Under the pieces are notes generated by a model that was not told the DNA's origin, made no database searches, and saw only the letters and a list, made by a program, of their open reading frames with translations. A stretch of 64,000 bases of DNA from Thermoplasmata archaeon (lineage in GTDB: Archaea > Thermoplasmatota > Thermoplasmata > RBG-16-68-12). The position numbers and the translations under genes were made by a program. The DNA lies in contig DATMDM010000037.1 in NCBI GenBank assembly GCA_035557795.1, forward strand, positions 1,408-65,407, written 5' to 3'. How positions within the stretch are numbered: the first letter of the stretch is position 1; every line of letters starts with the position of its first letter. Of this stretch, positions 2,496 to 36,978 are shown in pieces.

Positions 2496-3206
2496 CTACT
2501 CCGCGATGATCCGCGTCGCTTGCAAGATCCCACTCTGGAAAATGAGCGTGTAGTAGTTCGGCGAATGGTTCGTGCCGCGCAGTTTCACGCACCGAATCCG
2601 TCGCTGGATGTTCGCGTCGTCGACGCGTTCCATCTTCGTGTGGATGATTCCGTCGCTGAGATATTCCTCGCCGTTCTTGCCGAAGTCCTCGCTGCCCGGT
2701 TTCATCTCGCTGATCAGGATCGTGGTCGCCTTCAGATCGCGGATCCACTCGAACAGCTGAAAGAGGTCTTCGCGCGGGTTTTCGAACCGCGACATGACCT
2801 CGAGGACCGGGAGCGAATCGACGACGAGGATGTCGTAGTTCATGGAGCGCTTCAGGTTCAGCGCGTACATCTTGAAGATCTCGAGCCACGTGCGGTCGGC
2901 CATCCCGTCCAGGTTTCGACGGATCATGCCGAGGTCCACGATGCTGACCTTGTTCTCGACATCCCGCGGGCTCAGGCTCATCTGGTCCAGGTGGCGCGTG
3001 AGGTTCTCACGACCCTGCTCCAGGGAGATGTAGGTGCCCGGCCTCCCGTCGCGAAGCGCGTTTTGGTAGATCATGTTGAACGCGATCGTGGACTTCATCG
3101 TCCCCGGCTCTCCCGCGAGGAGGACGACGTGGCCCTCCGGGATGCCGCCGCCTAGCTTGTCATCAAAACCGTGGATGAAGGTGCGGATACGGTCTCCTTG
3201 GCTCAT
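2496..3206 (-). CDS. KaiC-like / RadA-paralog RecA-superfamily ATPase
   Basis: Walker A motif GEPGTMKST. The layout matches the ~240-aa archaeal KaiC-like signal-transduction ATPases. Start chosen at MSQGDRIRTFIHGFDDKLGGGIP, which gives a leaderless spacing from a minus-strand TATA (TTATAC) at 3233-3240. Confidence 0.75.
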   Translation of the reverse strand: MSQGDRIRTFIHGFDDKLGGGIPEGHVVLLAGEPGTMKSTIAFNMIYQNALRDGRPGTYISLEQGRENLTRHLDQMSLSPRDVENKVSIVDLGMIRRNLDGMADRTWLEIFKMYALNLKRSMNYDILVVDSLPVLEVMSRFENPREDLFQLFEWIRDLKATTILISEMKPGSEDFGKNGEEYLSDGIIHTKMERVDDANIQRRIRCVKLRGTNHSPNYYTLIFQSGILQATRIIAE

Positions 3207-3232
3207 AGCAAGGCATTCCATTGGAAGGAGCG

Positions 3233-3240
3233 CGTATAAC
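3233..3240 (-). promoter_or_regulatory. TATA-box candidate for the KaiC-like gene, about 30 nt upstream of its ATG (leaderless)
   Basis: cgtataac on the + strand reads GTTATACG on the - strand. The surrounding intergenic 3261-3368 is A/T-rich. Confidence 0.35.
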
Positions 3241-3368
3241 CGTTCCGAGGCCGTTATCACCGGGAGCTAGTCGTCGGCGTATGGAGGAAAACAAAAAAGA
3301 AAGGGGGAGTAAGCGCGAACTGAAAGACGACAGGGCGCCTAGCATAAGATGATTTTTGCACTCGGTCT

Positions 3369-4022: not shown

Positions 4023-4457
4023 GAGGGAAGCTAGGCCATCGAGGTGGATGCTCAGCTCCGACGCCGGGTGACCCGGATGCGTCCTCGGTCCCGCACCCCC
4101 GCGAGCGTTGGTAGTCCGCGGTGAGGCTGCTCACTTCCGTGCCTGACCCGTTCCCCACGATCGGGACGGGGATCGCCGCTCTCCAGCTGCGATCCCTGTC
4201 GCCTCCAGCCCCGCGGGACAGAACCTCAACGTCGGCATCCGGACCAGCGCCAGACTGGGAGCACCGCCCCCGATTGTCACCGCCCCATGAGGACGATTTG
4301 GGTCTACAAGGGGACGCCCAACCCCCCGGTCAAGCCTAGCGCCGTTCTCAACCAAGACATCGTATTTAGCTTTCTCGGTCTCGATCTCGAGAGCGCGCGG
4401 AACGGAAAGGGTTATGTCGCGGCGGAACTGTTCCTTCACTAGGCGGGGGAGAGGCGG

Positions 4458-8374: not shown

Positions 8375-8444
8375 CGCATCACAGTGGAAAGGATGGTCGT
8401 GACTCGGATAAAGGTTCTGCGCGTCCGAGCTCTCCGTCATATGT

Positions 8445-8474: not shown

Positions 8475-10271
8475 GTGCGCGTCGCCGTTGTGTTCAAGGA
8501 TCGATGTCAGCCCAAGCGCTGCCATCTCGAATGCATCGCCTTCTGCCCACCGCAGCGGACCGGCACCGAGGTCATCTGGATTGATCCGGAGACCACGAAG
8601 GCCGCGATCAGCGAAGAGACGTGCATCTCGTGCGGAATCTGCACGAAAAAGTGTCCGTTCGATGCGATTCGGATCATCGGCCTTCCTGAGGCTCTCAAGG
8701 AAGATTTGGTCCATCAATACGGAAAGAACGCCTTCCGTCTCTTCCGTCTACCGGTTCCGAAGCAGGGGGAGGTCATCGGCCTGCTCGGCCCGAACGGTAT
8801 CGGCAAGACCACCTGCGTCGGCCTCCTGAGCGGAGAGGTCGCGCCGAATCTCGGCCACTACCGCCGAAAAAAAGCCTATTGGGAAGAAGTGCTCGACTAC
8901 TTCGCCGGAACGGAGCTCCACGACTACCTCGCGAAGATTGCGAACAAGAAACTCACCACCGCCATCAAGCCGCAGTATGTCGACAAATTGAGCAAGATTT
9001 ACACGGGCCGTGTCCGAGATCTCTTGACGAAGATCGACAAGAGAGGTCGCCTCGCCGAGCTGACGGTGTCCCTCGACCTCGAATCGTTCCTGGATCGGGA
9101 CATCGCGCAGCTGTCGGGCGGCGAGTTGCAACGCATGGCGATCGCCGCAACGATGCTCAAAGAGGCCGACATCTACTTCTTCGACGAGCCATCGTCTTAC
9201 CTCGACATCTACCAACGGCTGCAAGTCGCGAAGGTCATCCAGTCCCTCTCGCAGGAGAAATATGTCGTCGTCGTGGAACACGACCTGGCCGTCCTCGATT
9301 TCCTCGCAGACACCGTCTTCCTCATGTACGGCGAGGAGGGCGCGTACGGAATCATTGCGCAGCCGCGGCCGGTCCGCACCGCGATCAACGTATATCTCGG
9401 CGGCTACCTGAAGGAGGAGAACATCCGCTTCCGGGATCGCGAGATCCGCTTCGACACCCGCCCGCCTCGAAGCGACTGGAAGGGCGAGACGCTCGTCACG
9501 TTCGACGGACTCACGAAACGGTTCGAGGGCTTCGAGCTCACCGTCCATCCGGGACGGCTGCGAAAAGGCGAGGTCGTCGGCGTGGTCGGACCAAATGCGA
9601 CCGGCAAGACCACGTTCGTCAAGATGCTCGCGGGCCAGGAGACGCCCACGTCGGGCGCCGTGGAGGGACGGTGGCAGGTCTCGTACAAGCCGCAATACCT
9701 CGAGGCCGTCTACGAAGGCACCGTCGGGGAGTTGCTGCGCAACGCGGTCGGAAAGAAGGCGGACACCGGCTACTTCGAGACGGAGATCCTCCAGCCGCTC
9801 AAGGTCAAAGGGATGCTGGAGCGGGATGTCTCGACGTTGTCCGGCGGCGAGTTGCAGCGCGTCGCCATCGCCCTGTGCCTCGGCCGGGATGCCGACATCT
9901 ACCTGATCGACGAGCCGTCCGCATATCTCGATTCGAACCAGCGGATGGAGGCGGCGCGGACGATCCGACGGGTCATGGAGAAGGAAGCCCGGACCGGGCT
10001 CATCGTCGACCACGACGTGTACTTCATCGACATGGTGTCGGACAGCATCATGGTCTTCTCCGGCGATCCGGGCCGCACCGGTGTGGGCGAAGGTCCATTC
10101 CCGATGCGGGACGGGATGAACAAGTTCCTGAAAATGGTTGGCATCACATTCCGGCGGGACGCGGACACGAATCGCCCGCGAATCAACAAGCTCGACTCCC
10201 GCTTGGATCGAGAGCAGAAGTCCGCCGGCGAATATTACTACGCGATCGAGGATGCGCTTCACGCGTCGTGA
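8475..10271 (+). CDS. abce1: ABCE1 (RNase L inhibitor / ribosome-recycling factor): 4Fe-4S ferredoxin domains plus two ABC ATPase domains
   Basis: N-terminal Cys clusters (CISCGICTKKCP). Two Walker A motifs, GPNGIGKTT and GPNATGKTT. Two ABC signatures, LSGGELQR. The shadow ORFs 8748..10262(-) and 8879..10672(+) are rejected. Confidence 0.9.
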   Translation: MRVAVVFKDRCQPKRCHLECIAFCPPQRTGTEVIWIDPETTKAAISEETCISCGICTKKCPFDAIRIIGLPEALKEDLVHQYGKNAFRLFRLPVPKQGEVIGLLGPNGIGKTTCVGLLSGEVAPNLGHYRRKKAYWEEVLDYFAGTELHDYLAKIANKKLTTAIKPQYVDKLSKIYTGRVRDLLTKIDKRGRLAELTVSLDLESFLDRDIAQLSGGELQRMAIAATMLKEADIYFFDEPSSYLDIYQRLQVAKVIQSLSQEKYVVVVEHDLAVLDFLADTVFLMYGEEGAYGIIAQPRPVRTAINVYLGGYLKEENIRFRDREIRFDTRPPRSDWKGETLVTFDGLTKRFEGFELTVHPGRLRKGEVVGVVGPNATGKTTFVKMLAGQETPTSGAVEGRWQVSYKPQYLEAVYEGTVGELLRNAVGKKADTGYFETEILQPLKVKGMLERDVSTLSGGELQRVAIALCLGRDADIYLIDEPSAYLDSNQRMEAARTIRRVMEKEARTGLIVDHDVYFIDMVSDSIMVFSGDPGRTGVGEGPFPMRDGMNKFLKMVGITFRRDADTNRPRINKLDSRLDREQKSAGEYYYAIEDALHAS

Positions 10272-10278
10272 TCGTCCG

Positions 10279-11529
10279 TTACGTCGAAGCGCGAATCAAT
10301 CGGCCCTGCCCCTCGGAGATGGCCTCGCCGTCTTCGACGATTGTTTCTCCTCGGAGGTACACGGCTCGAGGGAAGCAGGCTTCCATTCCCTCGAACGGTG
10401 TCCACCCGCATTTGTACCGCACCCGTTTCGCCGTGACGGCCTCGATGTTGCGCGGGTCCACAACGACGAGGTCTCCATCCCGGCCCACCTCGATCGTCCC
10501 CTTCGCGATTCCCAAGATTTCGGCGGGTCGCACTGCCATCGCCGAGACGAGTCGCGGGAGGTCCAGGTCGCCCGCCCGGATTCGACGCATCAGGAGCGGG
10601 AACGCCGTCGCGACGCCGGGGAGTCCGGCGGGCGCCTCCTCGAAGAGGCCGCTCTTCTCCTCAATCGTGTGAGGGGCGTGGTCGCTCGCGACCGCGTCGA
10701 TGCGGCCCTGGCGGAAGGCCCCCCAGAGCGCGTCGCGATCCGTGGGTGATCGGAGCGGGGGATTCACTTTGCCTCGGGCTCCGAGCGGCTTTGACCAGTC
10801 GAGGAAGAGGTGGTGGGGCGTCACCTCGCATGTCGCCCCCGCAGGCACCGAGTTGAGGGCATCCACACAAGTGACGTGAGCGACGTGCACCCTCGCTCCG
10901 CCGCGGATGCGCGCCAGGGTCGCGATGGCGGCTTCCTCGGCGACCTTCGGTCGCGCCGCGTCGTGGCCTCGGAGGTCCTTCGCTTTCTGCCTGTTGAATT
11001 TTTTCGGGTCCTCCGCATGGACGACGACGAGTTTCGGCTGCGCTTCCGCGGCTCGAAGGATTTCTTCTAGTCGCGGCACGGTCACCTCGAGATTTCCCGT
11101 CGACTCGGCCATGTAGACTTTGAATGCGACCGCTTTGGCGAGTCGCGGGACTGCCTCCGGGGATTGCGGCGCAGCATACAGTGCATAGTCCACCGCGGCC
11201 CGTCCTTGGAGCTCCGCGGCCTTCGCATCAAGCGCGGCTGTCGTGATCGCCGCCGGGACCGTGTTCGGCATGTCCGCCACCGTCGTCACGCCGCCGATCG
11301 CCGCCGACCGGGTCCCGCTCGGGAAATCTTCTTTGTACCGGAGCCCCGGGTCCCTCATATGGACGTGGAGGTCGACGCATCCTGGGAGGATCAGCGCATC
11401 GCCGTGGTCAATCTGTTCGTCGCCTCGGAGCACTTTCTTGATCGCGGCGATCTGGCCGGTTTCATCAATTCCGATGCTCAAGGGCTCGAGCTGGCCGCGA
11501 AAGAACACGCGGCCGCTAATGACCCGCAT
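10279..11529 (-). CDS. pyrC: Dihydroorotase-like cyclic amidohydrolase
   Basis: Metal-binding motifs DLHVHMRDPG and DHAPH. Conserved GLPGVATAFPLL. Start taken at MRVISGRVFFRG (M36 of the track ORF). Confidence 0.7.
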   Translation of the reverse strand: MRVISGRVFFRGQLEPLSIGIDETGQIAAIKKVLRGDEQIDHGDALILPGCVDLHVHMRDPGLRYKEDFPSGTRSAAIGGVTTVADMPNTVPAAITTAALDAKAAELQGRAAVDYALYAAPQSPEAVPRLAKAVAFKVYMAESTGNLEVTVPRLEEILRAAEAQPKLVVVHAEDPKKFNRQKAKDLRGHDAARPKVAEEAAIATLARIRGGARVHVAHVTCVDALNSVPAGATCEVTPHHLFLDWSKPLGARGKVNPPLRSPTDRDALWGAFRQGRIDAVASDHAPHTIEEKSGLFEEAPAGLPGVATAFPLLMRRIRAGDLDLPRLVSAMAVRPAEILGIAKGTIEVGRDGDLVVVDPRNIEAVTAKRVRYKCGWTPFEGMEACFPRAVYLRGETIVEDGEAISEGQGRLIRAST

Positions 11530-12133
11530 GCGCCGCCTCCAAGGTCCGGCGCACGACGGGACCGCGGGGCTGGGTTTCCGCGAAGACCTCGGCCTGGAAC
11601 TTGTAGACCCGGGTCGCGGGGTCGAGCCACGCATCCGCCAAGAGGCCCGCTTTCATGCACGCCTCGGACAAGAATTCGGCCGCGTCCCAGGCATACTCGA
11701 CGGCGACCTGCGGGAGCAAGAGTCCTCGGTATGGACCCTGGGCGACACTCAAACCATCCTCGCCGAGGGTGACGGACTTCGCGAGGTCCTTCGGCTTCTT
11801 CACTTCAATCAGTTGAGGCGGGGTCAGGATGCTCACCTCTACGGTGACGCGGTCGAGTTCTTCCGGGGTCAACCGCGGGAACCGTGGGTCCTCCGCGGCG
11901 CCTTCCGCGCCTTTCTCGATCGACTTGACGAGCGGGAAGAACGGTTGCGGGTAGCCGATGCAACCGCGCAGCAAGCCACTCGGATGTTCGTTGAGCGTCA
12001 CGAACGCTCCGGACTTCTTTTCGAATGCCTTGGGGACTTCAACGGTTCGTTTCACGCGTTTGACGACGTAGGCCTCGAGGGCCTCGCGCGCGATGCGGAC
12101 AGCGAGTTCGCCATCCCGGTCCGCGTACGACAT
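11516..12133 (-). CDS. AMMECR1 domain protein
   Basis: RGCIGYPQPF...DPRFP, the AMMECR1 signature. Start at MSYADRDGE (M40 of the track ORF). 14-nt overlap with the pyrC start. Confidence 0.75.
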   Translation of the reverse strand: MSYADRDGELAVRIAREALEAYVVKRVKRTVEVPKAFEKKSGAFVTLNEHPSGLLRGCIGYPQPFFPLVKSIEKGAEGAAEDPRFPRLTPEELDRVTVEVSILTPPQLIEVKKPKDLAKSVTLGEDGLSVAQGPYRGLLLPQVAVEYAWDAAEFLSEACMKAGLLADAWLDPATRVYKFQAEVFAETQPRGPVVRRTLEAAHAGH

Positions 12134-12286
12134 TCGCCTCGACAACAAGGCGCGTGCCTTAACATTGTCGGCACGATTCTTCGATTGCCAATCCGGAGTG
12201 GCCCTCCGTCTCCACCGATTGAAACGCGCACTGTGCGATTGTACTCGCAACCTTTATCGGCCCCGACCTCTCATTCACCGCATGTC

Positions 12287-12820
12287 ATGCGCGCCCGCGT
12301 TCCCGTCGTCGAAATCATGACGCAGTCCCCGGTGACGATTCCGGCCGACGCGACCGCGAAGGACGCCGCTGGCCTCATGCGAGACCGGGAGATCGGGAGC
12401 CTCGTCGTGGTCGAGACGGGCAAGCCGATGGGCATCGTCACGGAGCGGGATATCGTGACGAAAGTCGCCGCGCCAGACAAACAACCGAGCCGCGTCCTCG
12501 TCCGAGACATCATGACGTCCCCCGTGGTCGTGATCCATCCGCATGAGGAAGTCGCCGAGGCTGCGAAGCTGATGTCGCAACGCAAGATCCGAAGACTCCC
12601 CGTCGTCCAGGACGGAAAGCTCGTCGGGATGATCACAGAGAACGACATCATCCGGGTCTGGCCCCAACTGATCGAAGTCACGCGGGAATACGCTCGGGCC
12701 GGACTCGAGTCGGAGTTCGCGAAGGGCATCGAGGGCCACTGCGAGGCGTGCGGAGTGTATTCGACGAACCTCGTGTGGGATCGCAACTTGCTCGTCTGCC
12801 CTGAGTGCCGCGGCGGCTGA
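12287..12820 (+). CDS. CBS-domain pair protein with a C-terminal zinc ribbon
   Basis: Two CBS repeats (IMTQSPVTIPADATAKDAAGLM.., IMTSPVVVIHPHEEVAEAAKLM..). C-terminus HCEACGVYSTNLVWDRNLLVCPECRG. This is the in-frame tail of the track ORF 11243..12820, and the first ATG is at 12287. Confidence 0.7.
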   Translation: MRARVPVVEIMTQSPVTIPADATAKDAAGLMRDREIGSLVVVETGKPMGIVTERDIVTKVAAPDKQPSRVLVRDIMTSPVVVIHPHEEVAEAAKLMSQRKIRRLPVVQDGKLVGMITENDIIRVWPQLIEVTREYARAGLESEFAKGIEGHCEACGVYSTNLVWDRNLLVCPECRGG

Positions 12821-12893
12821 AGTGTGCGTCGTCGGGAAGGCGTGGATAACAGCCGCGGAACCTTTATAGGCCGTTCCCAGGTTCGGCCGGCCA

Positions 12894-13301
12894 TTGGCCC
12901 GATTCGTCAAGGTTTCTCAGCAAGAACTCGATTCGATCCGCAAGCTCTACGAGAGCGTCATGTCGTACGCCTGCCACGGCCTCTTCTTCCGAGAGGGCAT
13001 GGTCCTCGCCGAGGAAGTCACGAGGAACTTGGCGCTCGGCGAAGATCCGCTCGAGTTCGGCAAGAAAGTGATCCTCGAGCGGGGCTGGGCAGAGGAGGTT
13101 TCCTTCACCGACTCGGGCGCGAGGGTGCGCGGCTCGATCGAGGCGATGCCCGGGGGGGACGTAGAGACGTGCCACCGGCTTCGCGGGATTCTCTCGAAGC
13201 TCCTTGAGGCGAAAACGAAACACCGAGTGCGCCTGGCGGAAGTGGAGTGCGTGAGCACGGGCGGACACGAATGCGTCTTCGAACGGGAGGGCGGGGCGTG
13301 A
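12894..13301 (+). CDS. V4R-domain (4-vinyl-reductase-like small-molecule-binding) protein, putative
   Basis: GW.EEVSFTDSGARVRGSIEAMPGGDVETCHRLRGILSKLLE...LAEVECVSTGGHECVF. The conserved Cys/His pattern fits the V4R fold. Its stop overlaps the next gene as GTGA. Confidence 0.5.
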   Translation: MARFVKVSQQELDSIRKLYESVMSYACHGLFFREGMVLAEEVTRNLALGEDPLEFGKKVILERGWAEEVSFTDSGARVRGSIEAMPGGDVETCHRLRGILSKLLEAKTKHRVRLAEVECVSTGGHECVFEREGGA

Positions 13302-13654
13302 CCGCCTTGGCGGACATGGTCCGCGCGCTCCGCGATGTGACGAAGGCGGAGGCGGTCGCGGTCGTCAATCGCGATGGCGGGATCGTGGCGGCCGAGCTTC
13401 CGCGAAGTGTCTCGCAGGAGACGTTCTCGATCATGTGCGCCGCAATCCTCGGCGCCGGGATGACCGCCGCGACGGAGCTGGGCCACACGGCGCCGCACCG
13501 CGTCCTCCTCGAGTCCGACGACGCGACCGTGGTCATCCAAGAAATCGGCCGACGCGCCATGGTGGTGCTCGTGGTACCGCCGGAGCGCGTGGTCTCCGAT
13601 CTCGACGCGGCGATCTTGCGGTTCGCGCAGGCCGCGGCCAAGGATTTGGACTGA
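13298..13654 (+). CDS. Roadblock/LC7 (MglB-like) domain protein
   Basis: AVAVVNRDGGIVAAELP...ETFSIMCAAILGAGMTAATELG...VLLESDDATVVIQEIGRRAMVVLVVP. A GTG at 13298 overlaps the upstream stop (GTGA). The alternative start is the ATG at 13316. Confidence 0.7.
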   Translation: MTALADMVRALRDVTKAEAVAVVNRDGGIVAAELPRSVSQETFSIMCAAILGAGMTAATELGHTAPHRVLLESDDATVVIQEIGRRAMVVLVVPPERVVSDLDAAILRFAQAAAKDLD

Positions 13655-13697: not shown

Positions 13698-13770
13698 GGG
13701 CCCGTAGTCTAGTGGCTATGATGCGACTCTTACAAAGTCGAGGTCGTCGGTTCGATTCCGACCGGGCCCA
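13698..13770 (+). tRNA. tRNA-Val (anticodon TAC)
   Basis: Cloverleaf read by hand. Acceptor GGGCCCG/CGGGCCC. Anticodon arm CGACT-CTTACAA-AGTCG. T-arm GGTTCGATTCC. Discriminator A. No encoded CCA. Confidence 0.9.
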
Positions 13771-27081: not shown

Positions 27082-27912
27082 TCAGATCAAATACACGATC
27101 GTGAAGAGGAAGATCCAGACCACATCGACAAAGTGCCAATACAATCCAACAAGCTCGACCGCTTCGTGATTCTCCTTCGTGAATCCGCCTTTGAATGCTT
27201 TTCGGGTGATGTACGCCATCGCGAGCACCCCTGCCGTCACGTGGGACCCGTGCACTCCGGTCTGCGCGTAGAACGTCGGGCCGTAGAGCGGATTCACCCC
27301 GAAGGGGGCGGTCTTGAACGTGAGCCCCTCGCCGAAGTACAGTTTCTGGTACTCGAACGCCTGGATGCTGAGAAACGTCATGCCGAGGAGCAACGTGGCC
27401 AGGAGAAAGATGCGCAGCTTTCTCTGATCGCCCCGCTCGGCCGCGGCGAGCCCTTCGACCATCGTGAGGCTGCTGCAAATCAGGATGAAGGTGTTCAAGC
27501 CGGTGAGGGGGACATTGAGGATCTCTCCCGGCTGAGCCCACGGTCCCTGGAACGCGTCCCCGAGCGTCGTCGTACGGAGTCGCAACGTCCAGGAGGCCCC
27601 GATGATCGCGGAGAAGAACATGATCTCGGTCGCCAGGAACAGCCACAGCCCGAGCTTTCGGGCGCTCACCCTCGGCAGCTTCGATTCGACGGCGGCGGCG
27701 AGCCCATAGAACGCGCTCGAAGGCCGCTGCATGTCTTGATGGATCCATCCGCCCGCGCCGCCGGCGAAGATCGCAAATCCCGCCAGGAGCATCGGGATGC
27801 TCGCGGTCACGATTCCGACGTAGGCCACGCCCATGCCTACCGCGATGATGACGGGCCACGGGCTGCCATGATGCTCCTCCTCTTCATGGCCCGCGGGCTC
27901 CGGGTGTGCCAT
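27082..27912 (-). CDS. Heme-copper (cytochrome c) oxidase subunit III
   Basis: 7-TM pattern with conserved HHxxxxPWP-like N-terminus (HHGSPWPV). LWLFLATEIMFF and HFVDVVWIFLFTIVY match CoxIII. Start at MAHPEPAGHEEEEHH (M31 of the track ORF). Confidence 0.8.
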   Translation of the reverse strand: MAHPEPAGHEEEEHHGSPWPVIIAVGMGVAYVGIVTASIPMLLAGFAIFAGGAGGWIHQDMQRPSSAFYGLAAAVESKLPRVSARKLGLWLFLATEIMFFSAIIGASWTLRLRTTTLGDAFQGPWAQPGEILNVPLTGLNTFILICSSLTMVEGLAAAERGDQRKLRIFLLATLLLGMTFLSIQAFEYQKLYFGEGLTFKTAPFGVNPLYGPTFYAQTGVHGSHVTAGVLAMAYITRKAFKGGFTKENHEAVELVGLYWHFVDVVWIFLFTIVYLI

Positions 27913-28421
27913 CGAGTACTCGGACCGGCGCAGTGCATCAATCGGGCTCCTATAACTCCTTCGGTTTTTTCCGGGCCGCATCAGTTCGGCCGGAAGACCC
28001 ATGGGTCATGGGCGAGAGTCAGGAAAAGGTCGCGGGACTTCGACCACTCGATGAGCCAGTTCGGTACGGGAATCCGTGGCCCCTCGGGGCGAAATCGCAT
28101 GAGGACGACGTGGAACCCTTGAGGGATAAAGGCATCGATGTACGTGCTGATTTCAATTCTCGGTACATAGAACGCAGCGGGACGGGACCTGATAATGGCG
28201 CGCGACATTCGCTTGGCCGACGCGATCCGAATTGCCGGAGACGGATCGGTCGGATTTTTGAACTCTACGTGCGGCGGACCTGTCGACGGAGTTTCCGCGA
28301 CGATCGACGTTGCGGACGACGTGTTGGGAACTGAAGGCGCCGCCTCCCCACGACGAAACTGCTTATACCCGCGCTCCGAATGAGGAGACGCCCGGGGTCT
28401 CCCATGCCGACGGTCCGACAC

Positions 28422-29210
28422 ATGAAGGCAAAGCTTGCCCTGATGGGAGAGGGCGGTGTCGGCAAGACCTCCCTGATCCGCCGGTTCGTCCTCAACGAGT
28501 ACCAGGACACATATCTCCACACGGTCGGGACCCGAGTGAGTAAGGTCGAGCTCACGGTTCCACACGGCGCTGACACCGAGGTCCAGATGGACATGTCGAT
28601 CTTCGACATCATGGGCCAGCGGGGATTCAAGGACCTCGTCCGGGAGACGTACTACCATGGCTCCCAGGCCCTGATGGGCGTCTGTGATCTCACGCGGAAG
28701 GACAGCCTGTACGCCCTGAACGAATGGATTCCCTCCGCGCTCGAGATTGCGGGCGACGTCCCGGTTTACCTGGTCGTGAACAAGAAAGACCTCGAGGAGC
28801 GCCGGGCGATCACCGAGGACGAGATCCGCCATGTCGCCGAAGCGTTTGCCGCTCCGATCGTGTACACATCGGCGCGGACCGGCACCTTCGTGGAGGACGC
28901 CTTCAACGCGCTGGCGATCGAGATCGTCGACCGCGCGTTCCGGCAGGATGCGGCCCGGGCGGTCGAGCGCGGCCTTCGAGACAAGGTCCTGGTGCTCCTC
29001 GACAAGCGCGGCTCGATTGGATTGAAGAAGAACCAGTTCTTCGAGATCCTCCGAGGCGTGAACTTCGACGACCTGCAGAGCGAGCTCGCTCGCCTCGAGG
29101 GAGAAGGCCTCCTGACGCTACTGTGGCACGGCACCTCGGACTTCACCGCGGTGATTACTCCACGCGGGACCGCGGCCACCAAACGGGCGTCGTCATGGGA
29201 AGAGGAGTGA
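28422..29210 (+). CDS. Ras-superfamily small GTPase (Rab/Arf-like) with a C-terminal winged-helix-like extension
   Basis: G1 GEGGVGKTS, G3 DIMGQ, G4 NKKD, G5 TSAR. A ~90-aa C-terminal tail (LVLLDKRGSIGLKKNQFFEILRGV..LARLEGEGLLTLLW) looks wHTH-like. Start at M15 (MKAKLALMGEGG). Confidence 0.75.
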   Translation: MKAKLALMGEGGVGKTSLIRRFVLNEYQDTYLHTVGTRVSKVELTVPHGADTEVQMDMSIFDIMGQRGFKDLVRETYYHGSQALMGVCDLTRKDSLYALNEWIPSALEIAGDVPVYLVVNKKDLEERRAITEDEIRHVAEAFAAPIVYTSARTGTFVEDAFNALAIEIVDRAFRQDAARAVERGLRDKVLVLLDKRGSIGLKKNQFFEILRGVNFDDLQSELARLEGEGLLTLLWHGTSDFTAVITPRGTAATKRASSWEEE

Positions 29211-29262
29211 GCAGACCGCTCCGCGAGGTGAGCCCACGAAGAAGGTCCAGCTCGAGCGGATC

Positions 29263-29838
29263 TTGGAGTCCCTCGATCCGCTCATGAATCCGGCGCCGTC
29301 CGCGGAGCAATATCCGACGCCCGCGGGGATCGCGGCCGAGGTCGTCTACCTCGCTCACGCGAAAGGCGACATCCAGGGTCGGTCGGTCGTGGACCTCGGA
29401 TGCGGGAACGGTGTGCTCGCGATCGCCGCGAAACTTCTCGGCGCCGGACCCGTGGCGGGCGTGGACTCAGATCCATTGGCCGTGGAGGTCGCGCGGCGGA
29501 ACGCGGAACGTGCACGGGTCGACGTCGCCTGGCGCCTCGTCGATGTCCAAGCCATCCATGAGTCCTTCGACACCGTCCTCATGAATCCACCGTTCGGTTC
29601 TCAGAGGCGGCATGCAGATCGTCCATTCCTGGACGCCGCGCTCGCATCGGGCCGCGTCGTCTACACGTTCCTGAACGCGAAGGCCGAAGCATATGTGCGG
29701 CATCGCATCGAGTCCGCGGCCGGGAAGATCACCGACCGTCTCGCGTATGCGTTTCCGATTCCCCACACCTTCGCCTTCCATCGGGACGAGCTTCGCCGGA
29801 TCGAGGTCGTCCTCTATCGTCTTGAAGTGGGGAAGTGA
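29263..29838 (+). CDS. METTL5-like SAM-dependent (RNA N6-adenine) methyltransferase. Start codon uncertain (TTG at 29263 or ATG at 29284).
   Basis: VVDLGCGNGVLAIAA (motif I) and NPPFG (motif IV). The in-frame upstream stop at 29152 leaves only TTG/ATG candidates. Confidence 0.65.
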   Translation: MESLDPLMNPAPSAEQYPTPAGIAAEVVYLAHAKGDIQGRSVVDLGCGNGVLAIAAKLLGAGPVAGVDSDPLAVEVARRNAERARVDVAWRLVDVQAIHESFDTVLMNPPFGSQRRHADRPFLDAALASGRVVYTFLNAKAEAYVRHRIESAAGKITDRLAYAFPIPHTFAFHRDELRRIEVVLYRLEVGK

Positions 29839-30650
29839 TAAATACCGACGGCTCTACTCCGTGCGACCCGCAGGAGTCGATGGACCGGATGGAGCCAAAG
29901 ATGGTCCTCCCGGGCGATGAGATCGCCGTCGCGGAGGAATTCGAGCCCGGGGAAGGGACCTACGAGCGGAATGGGCTTGTGTTCGCGGCGACGCCGGGTG
30001 TCCTCATCCTCGACCCGGAAAACCGCGTCGCGCGGGTGCGGGCGTTCAACCCGCCCGCGGAGCTCAAAGTCGGGGACATCGTGTACGGCGTCGTGGACGA
30101 CATTCGCGGCATGATGGCGACCGCGACGATCCTCGCGATCCATGGACGGACGCGCCAGATCAGCGGCGAATCGGAGGGGACGATCCACATCTCGAACGTA
30201 TCGGAAGAGTACACCGAGGACATTCGCGACATGTTCCGCCTCGGGGACATCATCCGCGCCAAGGTGATTCAGGTCAAGCCGTCGGTCCAGCTCACGACGG
30301 CGGAGCGGAATCTTGGGGTCGTGAAGGCTCTCTGTTCGATCTGCCGAGGGCCTCTCGAGCTCCGGGATCGGGAACTCTACTGCCCGCGGGACGAGCGCAC
30401 GGAACGGCGGAAGCTCGCGGCCGACTACGCAGACTTGAGGCTCTTTGTGCCCGCGACCGAACTCGGCGGTGGGAAGGTCGAGGCGAAACATCGGGAGCCT
30501 CGGAGCGAGGGTCAGGATCGCGGTGGACGAGATCGAGATCGGGGCGGGGGGCGCGATCGGTACCGAGACCGAGGCGGGGGCCGAGGTCGCGACGGACGCG
30601 GTCCTGGCGGCCGCGGCGGAAGGGATCGAGACCGCGGGCGACGTCGGTAA
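29835..30650 (+). CDS. csl4: Exosome RNA-binding subunit Csl4 (S1 + Zn-ribbon) with an RG/RGG-rich C-terminal tail
   Basis: VLPGDEI..GEGTY...VGDIVYGVV...GTIHISNVSEEY..FRLGDIIRAKVI...LTTAERNLGVV.ALCSICRG.L.....YCP, then about 50 residues of RDRGGGRDRYRDRGGGRGRDGRGPGGRGGRDRDRGRRR. GTG at 29835 overlaps the upstream stop (GTGA). Alternative ATG starts are at 29880-29900. Confidence 0.75.
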   Translation: MINTDGSTPCDPQESMDRMEPKMVLPGDEIAVAEEFEPGEGTYERNGLVFAATPGVLILDPENRVARVRAFNPPAELKVGDIVYGVVDDIRGMMATATILAIHGRTRQISGESEGTIHISNVSEEYTEDIRDMFRLGDIIRAKVIQVKPSVQLTTAERNLGVVKALCSICRGPLELRDRELYCPRDERTERRKLAADYADLRLFVPATELGGGKVEAKHREPRSEGQDRGGRDRDRGGGRDRYRDRGGGRGRDGRGPGGRGGRDRDRGRRR

Positions 30651-35152: not shown

Positions 35153-35938
35153 CTACTCCCCGTACCGTCGCTGCCGCATCTGGTACGACCGCAAGGCGCG
35201 GAGGAAATCGATCTTACGGAAACCGGGCCAATAGACGTCCACGAAATACAGTTCGGAATAGGCGAGCTGCCATAGGAGAAAGTTCGAGATCCGCTCCTCG
35301 CCGCTCGTGCGCAAGACCAAGTCCGGATCCGGCAAGTCCGCGGTGTAGAGCCGTTTCGAAAAGAACTTCTCGTCGATGTCGTGTGCGTCCACCTTCCCCG
35401 CCTGGGCGTCGCGCACGACGTCCCGAATCGCCTGGAGGATTTCTTCTCGTCCTCCATAGGCGACGGCGAGGTTGAAGCGATAACTGTCGTATTCTTTCGT
35501 TCGCCGTTCCGCGTACTCGATGGCGTCGATGACCTCCGCGGGGAGCAGCTCGCGGTCCCCGAATACATTGATGCGGATCTTGTGCCGGTGCACGCGGTCG
35601 TCGTCGCCGACCTTTCGGAAGTTTTCCGCGAAGAGGTGCATGAGGTGCTGGATTTCCTCGCTCGGCCGCCTCAGATTCTCCGTGGAGAACGCGAAGACCG
35701 TGAGGATCCGGACGCCGACCTCGAGGCACCACTCGAGGACCTCCTCGAGTTTGTCCCGGCCCTTGACGTGCCCGTCGAGGACGTTGCCGAGTCCGATTTC
35801 TCGTGCGAACCGGCGGTTCCCGTCCATGATGATGGCGACATGATGCGGGATCGCCGCCTGCCGCACTTGGTGGAGCAGCCGACGTTCGTACGCCTGGTAT
35901 GCGGCGTCGCTAATGATCTTCGAGATGTCCGTCGGCAT
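35153..35938 (-). CDS. uppS: Undecaprenyl (cis-prenyl) diphosphate synthase
   Basis: HVAIIMDGNRRFA, AFSTENL(RR) and the RTSGEERISNFLLWQ signature. A minus-strand TATA (+ strand ctatttat, 35966-35973) lies about 33 nt upstream. Confidence 0.85.
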   Translation of the reverse strand: MPTDISKIISDAAYQAYERRLLHQVRQAAIPHHVAIIMDGNRRFAREIGLGNVLDGHVKGRDKLEEVLEWCLEVGVRILTVFAFSTENLRRPSEEIQHLMHLFAENFRKVGDDDRVHRHKIRINVFGDRELLPAEVIDAIEYAERRTKEYDSYRFNLAVAYGGREEILQAIRDVVRDAQAGKVDAHDIDEKFFSKRLYTADLPDPDLVLRTSGEERISNFLLWQLAYSELYFVDVYWPGFRKIDFLRALRSYQMRQRRYGE

Positions 35939-36141
35939 CGACGGATGCTCACGAGTGGGACCGACCTATTTATCCATTCGCGGCTCGACCACCGGGAGGG
36001 ACCGCAAGGGTCCGGTCCGTCGTTCCGGACCGTCACGCGATTGGTCCGGCGGACTCACTCACCCGCAAAACCTTTAAGTATCGTCCTCAATTGGTCCAAC
36101 CAGTTCCTTTCATCCGACAGCGTGGTGTAGTGGCCTTATCG

Positions 36142-36978
36142 ATGAAATTGAGTGAGTATCAGGACCTTTACCGAAGGCTCTCGACCGCGGAGGACATCGA
36201 TTTCCTGGCCGAGAATTTTGGACACGACAAGGAGCTCCTCCTGGTCATCTACACGCAGCGCATCGTGCGTGAGACGACGAAGAAGTTCTATCGGGTGAAA
36301 GCGCAAGCTCGGCGCCTCGCGTTCATGTGGCAGAACGGCGCAAGCCTCCTTGAGATCGCCCGCAAGTTCGAGTTCCCGCCGATTTTGACGGCCCTCATGG
36401 TCCTCGAGCAACGGAAGATTTCTCGGAAACAGTTCTGGAAGATGATCAACGATCTGGACAGCGTGAAGGACCGGCGCTTGCGTCAAGAGCTCGCGGATGT
36501 GAACGGCGCGGACATCGTGTACTCCACGCAAGGCAGCGCCCGACAGTATGCCCGCGGGCGGTGGGGCGAGGCGAAGCTCCATACGTGGCTCGACGCCCGC
36601 AGCCTGCAATACGAGACGGAAAAAGACCTCCGGTCGAAGTACGACAAGACGCCCGACATCCTTCTCCACAAGCCGATCGAAATGAACGGTTCGCGGAAGT
36701 TCTGGATCGAGTCCAAGGCGACGTTCGGTGACCCGTACGAAATCCGACGTCACCTGCGGAAGCAACTTCAGCCGTACAGCGACCTGTTCGGCGATGGCGC
36801 CGTCGTGTACTGGTTCGGCCACGTCGACGACCAGAAATACGAGCTGCCTGAGGGCGTGGACATCGTCAGCCCAACGTTCTTCGAGACGCCGCCCCTCCCG
36901 TTCCCGTACGTGCCCGTGGGCGAGTCGCAACTCGAGGAACCAACGATGGAATCCGACGGCTTCAGCCATCGACAATGA
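36142..36978 (+). CDS. TPD-domain protein (CDIN1/C15orf41-like predicted PD-(D/E)xK nuclease)
   Basis: YDKTPDILLHKPIEMNGSRKFWIESKATFGD, that is a TPD motif plus E-x-K. Start at M18 of the track ORF 36091..36978. Confidence 0.55.
   Translation: MKLSEYQDLYRRLSTAEDIDFLAENFGHDKELLLVIYTQRIVRETTKKFYRVKAQARRLAFMWQNGASLLEIARKFEFPPILTALMVLEQRKISRKQFWKMINDLDSVKDRRLRQELADVNGADIVYSTQGSARQYARGRWGEAKLHTWLDARSLQYETEKDLRSKYDKTPDILLHKPIEMNGSRKFWIESKATFGDPYEIRRHLRKQLQPYSDLFGDGAVVYWFGHVDDQKYELPEGVDIVSPTFFETPPLPFPYVPVGESQLEEPTMESDGFSHRQ

What the first reader, a model, noticed from the sequence alone, without database searches (positions are those of the whole stretch)
12287..13654. CBS/Zn-ribbon + V4R + Roadblock/LC7 module without a local GTPase; a Ras-like GTPase with wHTH tail sits 15 kb away
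The V4R-like gene and the Roadblock/LC7 (MglB-like) gene are translationally coupled (GTGA overlap at 13298-13301). They follow a CBS-pair protein that ends in a C4 zinc ribbon. Roadblock/MglB proteins are GAP/GEF-like partners of small GTPases, and in archaea they usually sit in operons with MglA/Arf-like GTPases. No GTPase is adjacent here. The only small GTPase in the window (28422-29210) is Rab/Arf-like and carries an unusual C-terminal winged-helix-like extension. This points to a split, or re-wired, GTPase signalling module.
Basis: partly seen in the sequence, partly recalled or inferred. Interest (0 to 1): 0.55.

Follow-up and report, generated by a model that had tools for sequence, protein, structure and literature searches.

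The report
Conserved CBS, V4R, Roadblock sensor cassette
An uncultured soil archaeon carries a strongly conserved three-gene set (a CBS/zinc-ribbon protein, then a co-translated V4R ligand-binding protein and Roadblock adaptor) that probably senses a small molecule and regulates a nucleotide-hydrolysing switch protein encoded elsewhere; no evidence ties it specifically to the GTPase 15 kb away.

Summary
Genes at 12287-12820, 12894-13301 and 13298-13654 encode a CBS pair with a C4 zinc ribbon, a V4R domain and a Roadblock/LC7 protein. All three domains score above Pfam's cut-offs. V4R and Roadblock overlap in GTGA, 7 nt after a GGAGG.

The cassette is conserved. Of 144 related loci, 136 have Roadblock directly after V4R and 126 have the CBS gene directly before it. 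The V4R-Roadblock pair recurs in four more distant lineages. In three others, a sister V4R is coupled to a KaiC-like ATPase instead.

Only one of the 144 loci has a small GTPase in the held flank of up to 10 kb.

The window's GTPase (better start 28404) is Rab-like, and its conserved tail has a predicted winged-helix topology. It sits in its own conserved cluster with a methyltransferase and Csl4, 15-31 kb from the pair.

Best reading: V4R and Roadblock form a sensor-adaptor complex that regulates an unlinked P-loop NTPase. The "split GTPase module" idea is possible but unsupported, and a KaiC-like ATPase is a rival target.

This is a new variant of known parts and of moderate interest.

The parts
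12249..12257 (+). BRE/TATA-like promoter element AACCTTTAT, about 30 nt before the CBS start codon. This implies a leaderless or near-leaderless mRNA.
   Evidence: There are three exact copies in the window against 0.01 expected, and nine with one mismatch or fewer against 1.6 expected. The equivalent AAACCTTTTATCG element is conserved upstream of the CBS gene in other loci. It is a generic promoter consensus, not a specific operator.
12287..12820 (+). 177-aa CBS-pair protein with a C-terminal C4 zinc ribbon. The architecture is the same as TA0289.
   Evidence: Pfam CBS 119.8 bits. PDB sequence matches include Ta0289 (1pvm and 2qh1, E about 2e-11), and 3ghd, which its depositors named 'CBS domain protein fused to a Zn-ribbon-like domain'. 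The C4 motif is kept in 51 of 52 homologues. The gene lies directly upstream of V4R in 126 of 144 loci and in the distant locus L142.
12859..12869 (+). BRE/TATA-like promoter element AACCTTTATAG, about 25 nt before the V4R start. It marks a separate promoter for the V4R-Roadblock transcript.
   Evidence: A (A)ACnTTTATAG element is conserved in the 42-76 nt gap between CBS and V4R across loci.
12894..13301 (+). 135-aa stand-alone V4R-domain protein with a TTG start. It belongs to a narrow V4R subfamily and is the presumed ligand- or redox-sensing subunit.
13286..13290 (+). GGAGG ribosome-binding site for the Roadblock gene, lying inside the end of the V4R gene.
   Evidence: GGAGG or a similar element sits before the junction in most of the 52 species-level loci.
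13298..13654 (+). 118-aa Roadblock/LC7 protein with a GTG start that overlaps the V4R stop. It is the presumed dimeric platform that contacts an NTPase.
28404..29210 (+). 268-aa Rab-like small GTPase with a conserved C-terminal domain that looks like a winged helix. It is a candidate partner only and has not been shown to belong to the module.
   Evidence: Pfam Ras 107.9 bits. The G motifs are canonical: GEGGVGKT, DIMGQ, NKKD, SAR. The best structural matches are Thorarchaeota Rab 7ezb and Rab1/5/8. The tail is predicted as H191-205, H209-215, H221-233, E237-242, E246-251 at pLDDT 85-91. A methyltransferase and Csl4 follow it here and in L056 and L057.
2496..3260 (-). KaiC-like ATPase with a non-canonical Walker A (GEPGTMKS). 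It is a second, weaker candidate NTPase partner and has not been shown to belong to the module.
   Evidence: Pfam KaiC 138.2 bits; sequence. Its orthologue lies 7-10 kb upstream of V4R in the main clade and 3.5 kb upstream in L140. It is only 27-30% identical to the KaiC-like paralogues that are translationally coupled to sister V4R genes.

Best explanation
This is a conserved regulatory cassette of an uncultured, high-G+C soil Thermoplasmata lineage.

Proposed mechanism:
- V4R and Roadblock are made from one leaderless bicistronic mRNA. The Roadblock start overlaps the V4R stop, so the two proteins are made together (equimolar amounts are inferred). They most likely assemble into a small heteromeric complex.
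- The V4R subunit has a cysteine cluster (C93, C119, C127) of the kind that binds zinc in solved V4R and TRAPPC3 structures. It is the input: it binds a small, probably hydrophobic, ligand or senses redox state.
- The Roadblock subunit is the output: a dimeric platform of the MglB/LAMTOR/CvnB type that docks on a P-loop NTPase and changes its nucleotide state, acting as a GAP or a GEF.
- The neighbouring CBS/zinc-ribbon protein has its own promoter. It probably adds an adenosine-nucleotide (energy) or metal/redox input.
- The NTPase target is encoded elsewhere and is not identified. The candidates are the Rab-like GTPase with a winged-helix-like tail at 28404-29210 and a KaiC-like ATPase.

Shown: the domain identities, the coupling, the conservation of gene order, the lack of an adjacent GTPase, and the alternative V4R-KaiC pairing in relatives.

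Inferred: complex formation, ligand sensing, NTPase regulation, and the role of the CBS protein.
For: - Domain identities are above curated cut-offs.
- The Roadblock fold matches MglB, Asgard Roadblock, CvnB and Rag/LAMTOR.
- The V4R cysteine triad is invariant across divergent members. V4R relatives with solved structures are ligand sensors or zinc-stapled cavity proteins: MJ1460, MopR/DmpR, Thorarchaeota TRAPPC3 (PMC10933270).
- The start/stop overlap with an upstream GGAGG is conserved in nearly all of 52 species-level loci.
- V4R is followed by Roadblock in 136 of 144 loci, and CBS precedes V4R in 126 of 144.
- The pair persists at 29-43% V4R identity in different surroundings: L053, L141, L142 (with CBS) and L143.
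- Sister V4R genes overlap a KaiC-like ATPase gene in L138, L139 and L144/L145. This V4R subfamily is therefore repeatedly wired to P-loop NTPase machinery, either directly or through Roadblock.
- V4R (mean p-distance 0.34) and CBS (0.345) evolve more slowly than the flanking enzymes AMMECR1 (0.38) and dihydroorotase (0.43). Roadblock (0.42) evolves at about the same rate as those enzymes.
- Each of the two transcription units has its own conserved BRE/TATA element.
Against: - There is no experimental or structural evidence that V4R and Roadblock bind each other. AlphaFold2 on a database sequence that fuses them (P0045) gave good domains but pTM 0.55, so no confident interface.
- No NTPase is operonic with the pair in this clade.
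- No V4R-Roadblock or V4R-GTPase fusion protein was found among the 91 subfamily representatives.
- Residual co-evolution of V4R and Roadblock is no stronger than that of V4R with an unrelated neighbour.
- The CBS gene has its own promoter and is absent next to the pair in L053, L141 and L143, so it may be only a frequent neighbour.
- Two papers that may bear on this could not be read: Proudfoot 2008 on TA0289 and Makarova 2017 on KaiC-like hubs.
Confidence: 0.55

Rival explanations
1. One reading: a split GTPase module. V4R-Roadblock is the GAP/GEF-type regulator of the Rab-like GTPase with a winged-helix-like tail at 28404-29210. The genes were separated during evolution but still work together.
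For: - It is the only small GTPase in the window.
- The tailed GTPase family and the pair lie on the same contigs in at least two further genomes (L001/L056 and L025/L057). Matching contig lengths suggest several more.
- The Roadblock model's closest structural matches are regulators or partners of small GTPases.
- In L047, three paralogous GTPases lie 3.5-5.4 kb downstream, the first being the third gene after Roadblock.
- In remote lineages the pair sits beside genes that flank the GTPase in this window: TPD in L140 and L141, and Csl4 plus the methyltransferase in L053.
Against: - 143 of 144 loci have no small GTPase in the held flank of up to 10 kb.
- The spacing varies between 15 and 31 kb.
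- The GTPase is in its own conserved cluster with a methyltransferase and Csl4, which suggests a role connected with RNA or the ribosome.
- The L047 GTPases lack the tail.
- The remote loci with the pair have no GTPase.
- The GTPase has a canonical DxxGQ motif and is Rab-like, not MglA-like, so the MglB precedent does not transfer directly.
- Co-occurrence within one clade is expected from shared ancestry alone.
Confidence: 0.2
2. The target is a KaiC-like (RecA-superfamily) ATPase rather than a small GTPase. The V4R subfamily is an input module for KaiC-type signalling, and in this clade Roadblock acts as an adaptor between them.
For: - Sister V4R genes overlap the start of a KaiC-like ATPase gene in three lineages. 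DUF835 follows in L139, and Cdc6/Orc1 follows in L144/L145.
- A KaiC-like ATPase (2496-3260) lies in the same syntenic block 7-10 kb upstream of V4R in the main clade, and 3.5 kb upstream in L140.
Against: - The window's KaiC-like protein is only 27-30% identical to the V4R-coupled paralogues, so it is not their orthologue.
- It is on the opposite strand, several genes away.
- No Roadblock-KaiC interaction is known to me.
- The V4R genes that pair with KaiC and those that pair with Roadblock are different members of the subfamily, so their functions may have diverged.
Confidence: 0.12
3. The pair has nothing to do with NTPases. It is a small-molecule or redox binding/carrier complex, or an accessory of a transcription regulator (as with the V4R domain of MsvR). 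Roadblock serves only as a dimerisation scaffold.
For: - V4R domains with known roles are ligand or redox sensors. NCBIfam's only hit is the V4R part of MsvR, and MopR/DmpR also match.
- Tran et al. conclude that Asgard TRAPPC3/V4R proteins most likely bind ligands (PMC10933270).
- 44% of MglB homologues are orphans, and none of those has been characterised (PMC4316618).
- The Roadblock fold also resembles GAF and profilin ligand- or protein-binding modules.
Against: - Every characterised Roadblock or longin platform acts on an NTPase.
- The same V4R subfamily is repeatedly coupled to a P-loop ATPase.
- There is no DNA-binding domain in the cassette.
Confidence: 0.13
4. The CBS/zinc-ribbon gene is only a long-standing syntenic neighbour. 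The functional unit is the V4R-Roadblock pair alone.
For: - The CBS gene has its own BRE/TATA element, and V4R has a second one.
- The whole block ABCE1 / dihydroorotase-AMMECR1 / CBS-V4R-Roadblock is syntenic in the clade, so adjacency there is partly inherited.
- The CBS gene is absent beside the pair in L053, L141 and L143.
Against: - CBS-V4R-Roadblock recurs in L142 in a completely different neighbourhood (RuBisCO upstream, S3Ae downstream). There V4R is about 39% identical and the CBS protein keeps its C4 ribbon.
- The gap between CBS and V4R is always short, 42-76 nt in all but one locus.
Confidence: 0.3

Closest known systems
MglA-MglB GTPase/GAP systems of bacteria and archaea (Wuichet and Søgaard-Andersen 2014, PMC4316618)
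   Different: There is no MglA-family GTPase within four genes. The only nearby GTPase is Rab-like with a canonical DxxGQ motif. Roadblock is translationally coupled to a V4R protein, a pairing that paper does not mention (no occurrence of 'V4R' in it).
Eukaryotic TRAPP core (Bet3/TRAPPC3-family plus longin-family subunits, a Rab GEF) and the stand-alone Asgard TRAPPC3 and Roadblock proteins (Tran et al. 2024, PMC10933270)
   Same: It combines a V4R/Bet3-superfamily protein with a Roadblock/longin-superfamily protein, and the same genome region has a Rab-like GTPase. The cysteine cluster resembles the zinc site of Thorarchaeota TRAPPC3 and PoxR.
   Different: - The partner is a Roadblock, not a longin.
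- The organism is a Thermoplasmata archaeon, not an Asgard archaeon.
- In the Asgard archaeon MK-D1 these genes are generally not in operons, whereas here V4R and Roadblock are coupled.
- GEF activity is untested.
TA0289-type CBS proteins fused to a zinc ribbon (Thermoplasma acidophilum, PDB 1pvm and 2qh1; P. furiosus 3ghd)
   Same: The same architecture and size: a CBS pair followed by a C-terminal C4 ribbon, 177 aa. It is found in the same class of archaea, and there is a sequence match over the CBS pair (E about 2e-11).
   Different: Other CBS proteins score higher, so orthology is not established. The ribbon itself gives no significant match. Iron binding is reported for TA0289 (cited in PMC7521041) but is untested here. 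I could not check whether TA0289 has V4R and Roadblock neighbours.
Actinobacterial conservons (CvnA-D, Mfp): sensor kinase, Roadblock, DUF742 and GTPase in one operon
   Different: There is no kinase, DUF742 or GTPase in the operon. The sensor here would be a soluble V4R protein.
Archaeal KaiC-like ATPase signalling modules
   Same: Sister members of this V4R subfamily are translationally coupled to KaiC-like ATPases.
   Different: In this window the V4R gene is coupled to Roadblock instead. The window's KaiC-like gene is a different paralogue about 10 kb away.

Membership tests
Roadblock/LC7 (Pfam PF03259, MglB-like fold) | Profile match above the curated cut-off | tested here: met
   35.2 bits against a cut-off of 23, covering residues 7-91.
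Roadblock/LC7 (Pfam PF03259, MglB-like fold) | Alpha-beta-alpha sandwich superposable on solved Roadblock or MglB structures | tested here: met
   [not shown]
Coupled MglA-MglB system | Roadblock gene within four genes of an MglA-family GTPase gene (criterion of PMC4316618) | tested here: not met
   There is no GTPase within 14.7 kb in the window. 143 of 144 related loci have none in the held flank. Only L047 has GTPases from the third gene downstream.
Coupled MglA-MglB system | The partner GTPase is of the MglA type | tested here: not met
   The window GTPase has canonical G1, G3, G4 and G5 motifs, including DIMGQ. Its best structural matches are Rab proteins.
Coupled MglA-MglB system | GAP (or GEF) activity of the Roadblock dimer on the GTPase | not testable with these tools
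   This needs biochemistry or multimer modelling.
V4R domain (Pfam PF02830) | Profile match above the curated cut-off | tested here: met
   35.1 bits against a cut-off of 31, covering residues 84-130. A subfamily profile matches the V4R protein MJ1460 (2osd) at E 2.7e-7.
V4R domain (Pfam PF02830) | Conserved cysteine cluster near the C-terminus (the zinc site in PoxR/MopR and Thorarchaeota TRAPPC3) | tested here: met
   C93, C119 and C127 are invariant in 33 divergent members, and H94 is common. Metal binding itself was not tested.
TRAPP core complex (Rab GEF) | A subunit of the Bet3/TRAPPC3 family | tested here: inconclusive
   [not shown]
TRAPP core complex (Rab GEF) | Longin-fold subunits that form the GTPase-binding platform | tested here: not met
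   [not shown]
TRAPP core complex (Rab GEF) | Stable hetero-oligomer of the two subunit types | tested here: inconclusive
   The fused-chain AF2 model has pTM 0.55, so no confident interface. Translational coupling is only indirect support.
TA0289-type CBS/zinc-ribbon proteins | CBS pair followed by a C-terminal C4 zinc ribbon in a protein of about 180 aa | tested here: met
   CBS 119.8 bits with two stretches. CxxC-x16-CxxC is conserved in 51 of 52 homologues. Ta0289 matches at E about 2e-11.
TA0289-type CBS/zinc-ribbon proteins | Iron or zinc bound by the ribbon; adenosine-nucleotide binding by the CBS pair | not testable with these tools
   This needs metal analysis and ligand-binding assays.
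Actinobacterial conservon (CvnA-D) | Operon of sensor kinase, Roadblock, DUF742 and GTPase | tested here: not met
   Only the Roadblock component is present. The neighbours are CBS, V4R, a tRNA and a metallophosphoesterase.
Rag/Gtr-type GTPases | G domain fused to a C-terminal roadblock domain | tested here: not met
   The tail of the window GTPase is predicted as three helices plus a beta hairpin, which is a winged-helix topology and not an alpha-beta-alpha sandwich.
Winged helix-turn-helix domain (tail of the GTPase) | H1-H2-H3 followed by a beta-hairpin wing; match to a known wHTH family | tested here: inconclusive
   The topology is met at pLDDT 85-91. However, there is no Pfam hit (E<=10) on the tail, and a tail profile has no significant PDB sequence match (best E 0.17). 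A fold search of the tail alone was not possible.

The most novel reading that the evidence does not exclude
V4R and Roadblock form a heteromeric, ligand-gated exchange factor or GAP for the Rab-like GTPase. That would be a TRAPP-like arrangement (a Bet3-superfamily subunit on a roadblock/longin-type platform acting on a Rab-type switch) operating in a non-Asgard archaeon. It would mean this pairing of folds predates the Asgard-eukaryote lineage.
Probability: 0.1. Interest if true: 0.8.

Novelty: new variant of a known kind. Interest (0 to 1): 0.45.

Why it matters
Orphan Roadblock/MglB proteins make up nearly half of the prokaryotic family, and none had been characterised as of PMC4316618.

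This cassette gives a concrete hypothesis for one such orphan. It has a fixed, co-translated partner that looks like a small-molecule sensor. The same sensor subfamily is alternatively wired straight onto KaiC-like ATPases.

That points to a modular archaeal signalling logic: V4R as input, and a P-loop NTPase as the switch, reached either directly or through Roadblock. This can be tested with three or four small soluble proteins.

The pairing of a Bet3-superfamily fold with a roadblock/longin-superfamily fold is also the composition of the eukaryotic TRAPP core. A working V4R-Roadblock complex outside Asgard archaea would therefore bear on how GTPase-regulating platforms arose.

In the open-access literature I could search, I found no description of a V4R-Roadblock operon.

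Tried and rejected
1. **Fused-chain structure prediction.** I ran AlphaFold2 on P0045, a database sequence that fuses V4R (lacking its first 22 residues) to Roadblock. Its source is 'src', it has no contig, and it is probably chimeric. The aim was a pseudo-complex. The domains folded (pLDDT 80) but pTM was 0.55, so there is no usable interface. Larger block alignments were misaligned by MAFFT.

2. **Fusion-protein search.** None of the longer proteins checked among the 91 V4R subfamily representatives carries a Roadblock or GTPase domain. P0420 has a helical extension with no Pfam match. The others are V4R tandems or fusions to ACT or to an FAD-binding fragment.

3. **Mirror-tree test on 38 species.** The partial correlation of V4R with Roadblock (0.39) is no higher than that of V4R with AMMECR1 (0.39), so the test does not discriminate.

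4. **Metagenome scan with a divergent V4R alignment.** The second returned only the 80 closest relatives at 81-99% identity. Distant contexts had to come from look-ups of individual cluster representatives.

5. **Identity of the GTPase tail.** Pfam at E<=10 on three tails and a tail profile against PDB sequences gave nothing significant. The afdb50 fold library was unavailable.

6. **Zinc ribbon against PDB.** There is only a weak resemblance to the AccD N-terminal ribbon (E 0.27).

7. **A specific shared operator for the CBS and V4R genes.** Rejected. AACCTTTAT is the genome's general BRE/TATA consensus.

8. **A Roco (Roc-COR) reading of the GTPase.** Roc scores 76.8 bits, below Ras at 107.9, and there is no COR match.

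9. **Bacterial-type promoters and terminators.** The scan found nothing relevant, as expected for an archaeon.

10. **Papers that could not be read.** Proudfoot 2008 (TA0289) and Makarova 2017 (KaiC-like hubs). The latter may already describe V4R-KaiC links.
Full report
**What is there**

The window is archaeal. It has 64% G+C, an archaeal SRP RNA at 4029-4341 and three tRNAs. Its closest database relatives are metagenome-assembled genomes labelled Thermoplasmata, mostly from soil.

The + strand between 12287 and 13654 carries three genes:
- 12287-12820 encodes a 177-aa protein. Pfam CBS scores 119.8 bits (cut-off 24). The protein ends in CEAC-x16-CPEC.
- 12894-13301 encodes a 135-aa protein. 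Pfam V4R scores 35.1 bits (cut-off 31).
- 13298-13654 encodes a 118-aa protein. Pfam Robl_LC7 scores 35.2 bits (cut-off 23).

The Roadblock GTG start at 13298 overlaps the V4R TGA stop (GTGA, 13298-13301). It lies 7 nt after GGAGG at 13286-13290. tRNA-Val(TAC) follows 44 nt after the Roadblock stop.

The window holds one V4R, one Roadblock and one small GTPase.

**It is not chance**

A scan of one genome per GTDB species with a V4R alignment gave 52 loci. All are from uncultured archaea, nearly all labelled Thermoplasmata, Methanomassiliicoccales, Methanobacteriota or Euryarchaeota. V4R identity ranges from 43 to 99%. A metagenome scan gave 80 more loci, and look-ups of cluster representatives gave a dozen more.

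Of 144 loci that contain the V4R gene:
- 136 have the Roadblock gene directly after it;
- 126 have the CBS gene directly before it;
- one has a small GTPase anywhere in the held flank of up to 10 kb.

The V4R/Roadblock junction is RTGA, TGATG or a gap of a few bases, after a GGAGG-like element, in nearly all of the 52 species-level loci. The C4 ribbon of the CBS protein is kept in 51 of 52 homologues.

V4R and CBS evolve more slowly than the neighbouring enzymes. Mean p-distances are 0.34 and 0.345, against 0.38 for AMMECR1 and 0.43 for dihydroorotase. Roadblock is at 0.42.

**Transcription units**

The 9-mer AACCTTTAT occurs three times in the window, against 0.01 expected. One copy is about 30 nt before the CBS start and one about 25 nt before the V4R start. 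With one mismatch allowed there are nine copies against 1.6 expected, so this is the genome's general BRE/TATA consensus.

The element is conserved in the 42-76 nt CBS-V4R spacer and upstream of the CBS gene in other species. I therefore read the region as two units:
- a leaderless CBS transcript;
- a leaderless bicistronic V4R-Roadblock transcript with an internal ribosome-binding site.

**The proteins**

*V4R.* The protein belongs to a narrow subfamily. Only 91 cluster representatives out of 1.84 billion reach E<=1e-3. Across 33 divergent members, C93, C119, C127, G35, G98 and E116 are invariant. The subfamily profile matches the V4R protein MJ1460 (2osd, E 2.7e-7). It matches MopR and Thorarchaeota TRAPPC3 only weakly (E 0.1-0.4).

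Solved V4R and TRAPPC3 proteins use such a cysteine cluster to bind zinc and form a ligand cavity (PMC10933270). V4R has been proposed as the ancestor of the TRAPP subunit Bet3 (PMC2253512).

*Roadblock.* In an AlphaFold2 model, the Roadblock half superposes on several solved structures:

*CBS protein.* It has the architecture of Ta0289 (1pvm and 2qh1, E about 2e-11). PDB entry 3ghd is named 'CBS domain protein fused to a Zn-ribbon-like domain'. TA0289 is cited as iron-binding (PMC7521041).

**The GTPase**

Homologues are mostly 268 aa and start MPTxRRMK, so 28404 is the likelier start. The G motifs are canonical: GEGGVGKT, DIMGQ, NKKD, SAR. The best structural matches are Thorarchaeota Rab and eukaryotic Rab1, Rab5 and Rab8.

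The tail is conserved across the clade. It is predicted as three helices plus a beta hairpin at pLDDT 85-91, a winged-helix topology. It has no significant Pfam or PDB sequence match. 'Winged-helix-like' is therefore reasonable but unconfirmed.

In this window, and in two other genomes, the GTPase is followed closely by a small methyltransferase and then the exosome subunit Csl4. On the three contigs where both loci can be placed, the GTPase lies 15, 21.6 and 31 kb from the V4R gene.

**Is the GTPase the partner?**

The comparative evidence does not say so.
- No relative has the pair next to this GTPase.
- L047 is the only exception of any kind. It has three tandem, tail-less paralogues, the first being the third gene after Roadblock.
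- In the most divergent locus (L053), V4R-Roadblock lies 3.4 kb from Csl4 and the methyltransferase, with no GTPase beside them.
- In L140 and L141 the gene directly upstream of V4R is TPD. Its orthologue in this window lies 7 kb beyond the GTPase.

The last two points hint that the pair once lay in the region where this clade now has the GTPase. That is mildly compatible with a 'split' history. It is weak evidence, and those loci have no GTPase.

Orphan Roadblock genes are also common: 328 of 749 in PMC4316618, none of them characterised.

**A second NTPase link**

Contexts of remote members of the V4R subfamily fall into three classes:
- V4R followed by Roadblock: L053, L141, L142 (also with the CBS/zinc-ribbon gene upstream) and L143.
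- V4R overlapping the start of a KaiC-like ATPase gene: L138, L139 (then DUF835) and L144/L145 (then Cdc6/Orc1).
- V4R alone: L140 and L146.

The subfamily is thus repeatedly wired to P-loop NTPase machinery, either directly or through Roadblock.

The window has one KaiC-like ATPase (2496-3260, KaiC 138 bits, Walker A GEPGTMKS). It lies in the same syntenic block 7-10 kb upstream of V4R. It is a different paralogue from the V4R-coupled ones, at 27-30% identity.

**Most likely mechanism**

V4R and Roadblock form a hetero-oligomer. V4R senses a small ligand or redox state, and the Roadblock dimer transmits this to an NTPase as a GAP- or GEF-like platform. The CBS/zinc-ribbon protein adds an energy or metal input.

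I put this generic model at about 0.55. Specific versions rank as follows:
- the Rab-like GTPase as the target: about 0.2;
- a KaiC-like ATPase as the target: about 0.12;
- a role independent of NTPases: about 0.13.

Complex formation, sensing and NTPase regulation are all inferred. Only the anatomy and the conservation are shown.

**Comparison with known systems**

The cassette works most like an orphan MglB-type module with an added sensor subunit. In composition it echoes the TRAPP core (a Bet3-superfamily subunit plus a roadblock/longin-superfamily subunit).

It fails the membership tests for a coupled MglA-MglB system, a conservon and a Rag-type GTPase. For TRAPP, membership is unproven at best.

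I found no description of a V4R-Roadblock operon in the searchable literature. Makarova et al. 2017 on KaiC-like hubs could not be read and may cover the V4R-KaiC link.

**Verdict**

This is a new variant of known kinds, of moderate interest.

Noticed in passing
L138:129-1024; L139:6001-7629; L144:6001-8239; L145:4237-6475: Sister members of the same V4R subfamily (29-41% identical to the window protein) overlap the start of a KaiC-like ATPase gene instead of a Roadblock gene. DUF835 follows in L139, and Cdc6/Orc1 follows in L144/L145.
   Followed up: partly
window 2496-3260 (-): A KaiC-like ATPase (Pfam KaiC, 138 bits) with a non-canonical Walker A (GEPGTMKS in place of GxxxxGK[ST]). Its orthologue stays 7-10 kb upstream of V4R across the clade.
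   Followed up: partly
window 28404-30650 (+); L056:6001-8247; L057:6001-9292: The tailed Rab-like GTPase is always followed closely by a small methyltransferase (MTS/PrmA-type) and then the exosome subunit Csl4. This suggests a link to RNA or the ribosome rather than to membranes. Some database sequences (P0270, P0356; source 'src') even fuse the GTPase and the methyltransferase, and are probably chimeric.
   Followed up: partly
window 35917-36975 (+); L140:5201-5968; L141:4950-5708; L053:13355-14540: The TPD-motif gene (PF14811) lies 7 kb past the GTPase in the window but directly upstream of V4R in two remote lineages. Csl4 and the methyltransferase lie 3.4 kb from V4R-Roadblock in L053. 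This may be a remnant of an older shared neighbourhood.
   Followed up: partly
L047:7749-10121: Three tandem small GTPase paralogues (180-205 aa) that lack the winged-helix-like tail. They lie 3.5-5.4 kb downstream of the cassette. This is the only locus of 144 with any GTPase nearby.
   Followed up: partly
window 13698-13770 (+): tRNA-Val(TAC) starts 44 nt after the Roadblock stop on the same strand. No terminator-like site was found between them, although that scan is built for bacterial terminators. Co-transcription was not examined.
   Followed up: no
window 8408-8416 (-), 12249-12257 (+), 12859-12867 (+): Exact AACCTTTAT copies: three against 0.01 expected, or nine with one mismatch or fewer against 1.6 expected. 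This is the likely BRE/TATA consensus of the organism and is useful for calling leaderless transcripts in this genome.
   Followed up: yes
window 4029-4341 (-): Archaeal SRP RNA (Rfam RF01857, 183.5 bits).
   Followed up: no
window 8475-12250; loci L004-L052: The block ABCE1 (+), dihydroorotase and AMMECR1 (-), then CBS, V4R and Roadblock (+) is syntenic in almost all species of the clade. The downstream side (metallophosphoesterase, YjeF-type NAD(P)HX repair enzyme) is variable.
   Followed up: yes
window 27082-28002 (-): Cytochrome c oxidase subunit III with an N-terminal DUF7541. In relatives a COX4_pro gene follows it. This indicates an aerobic respiratory chain in this Thermoplasmata lineage.
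   Followed up: no
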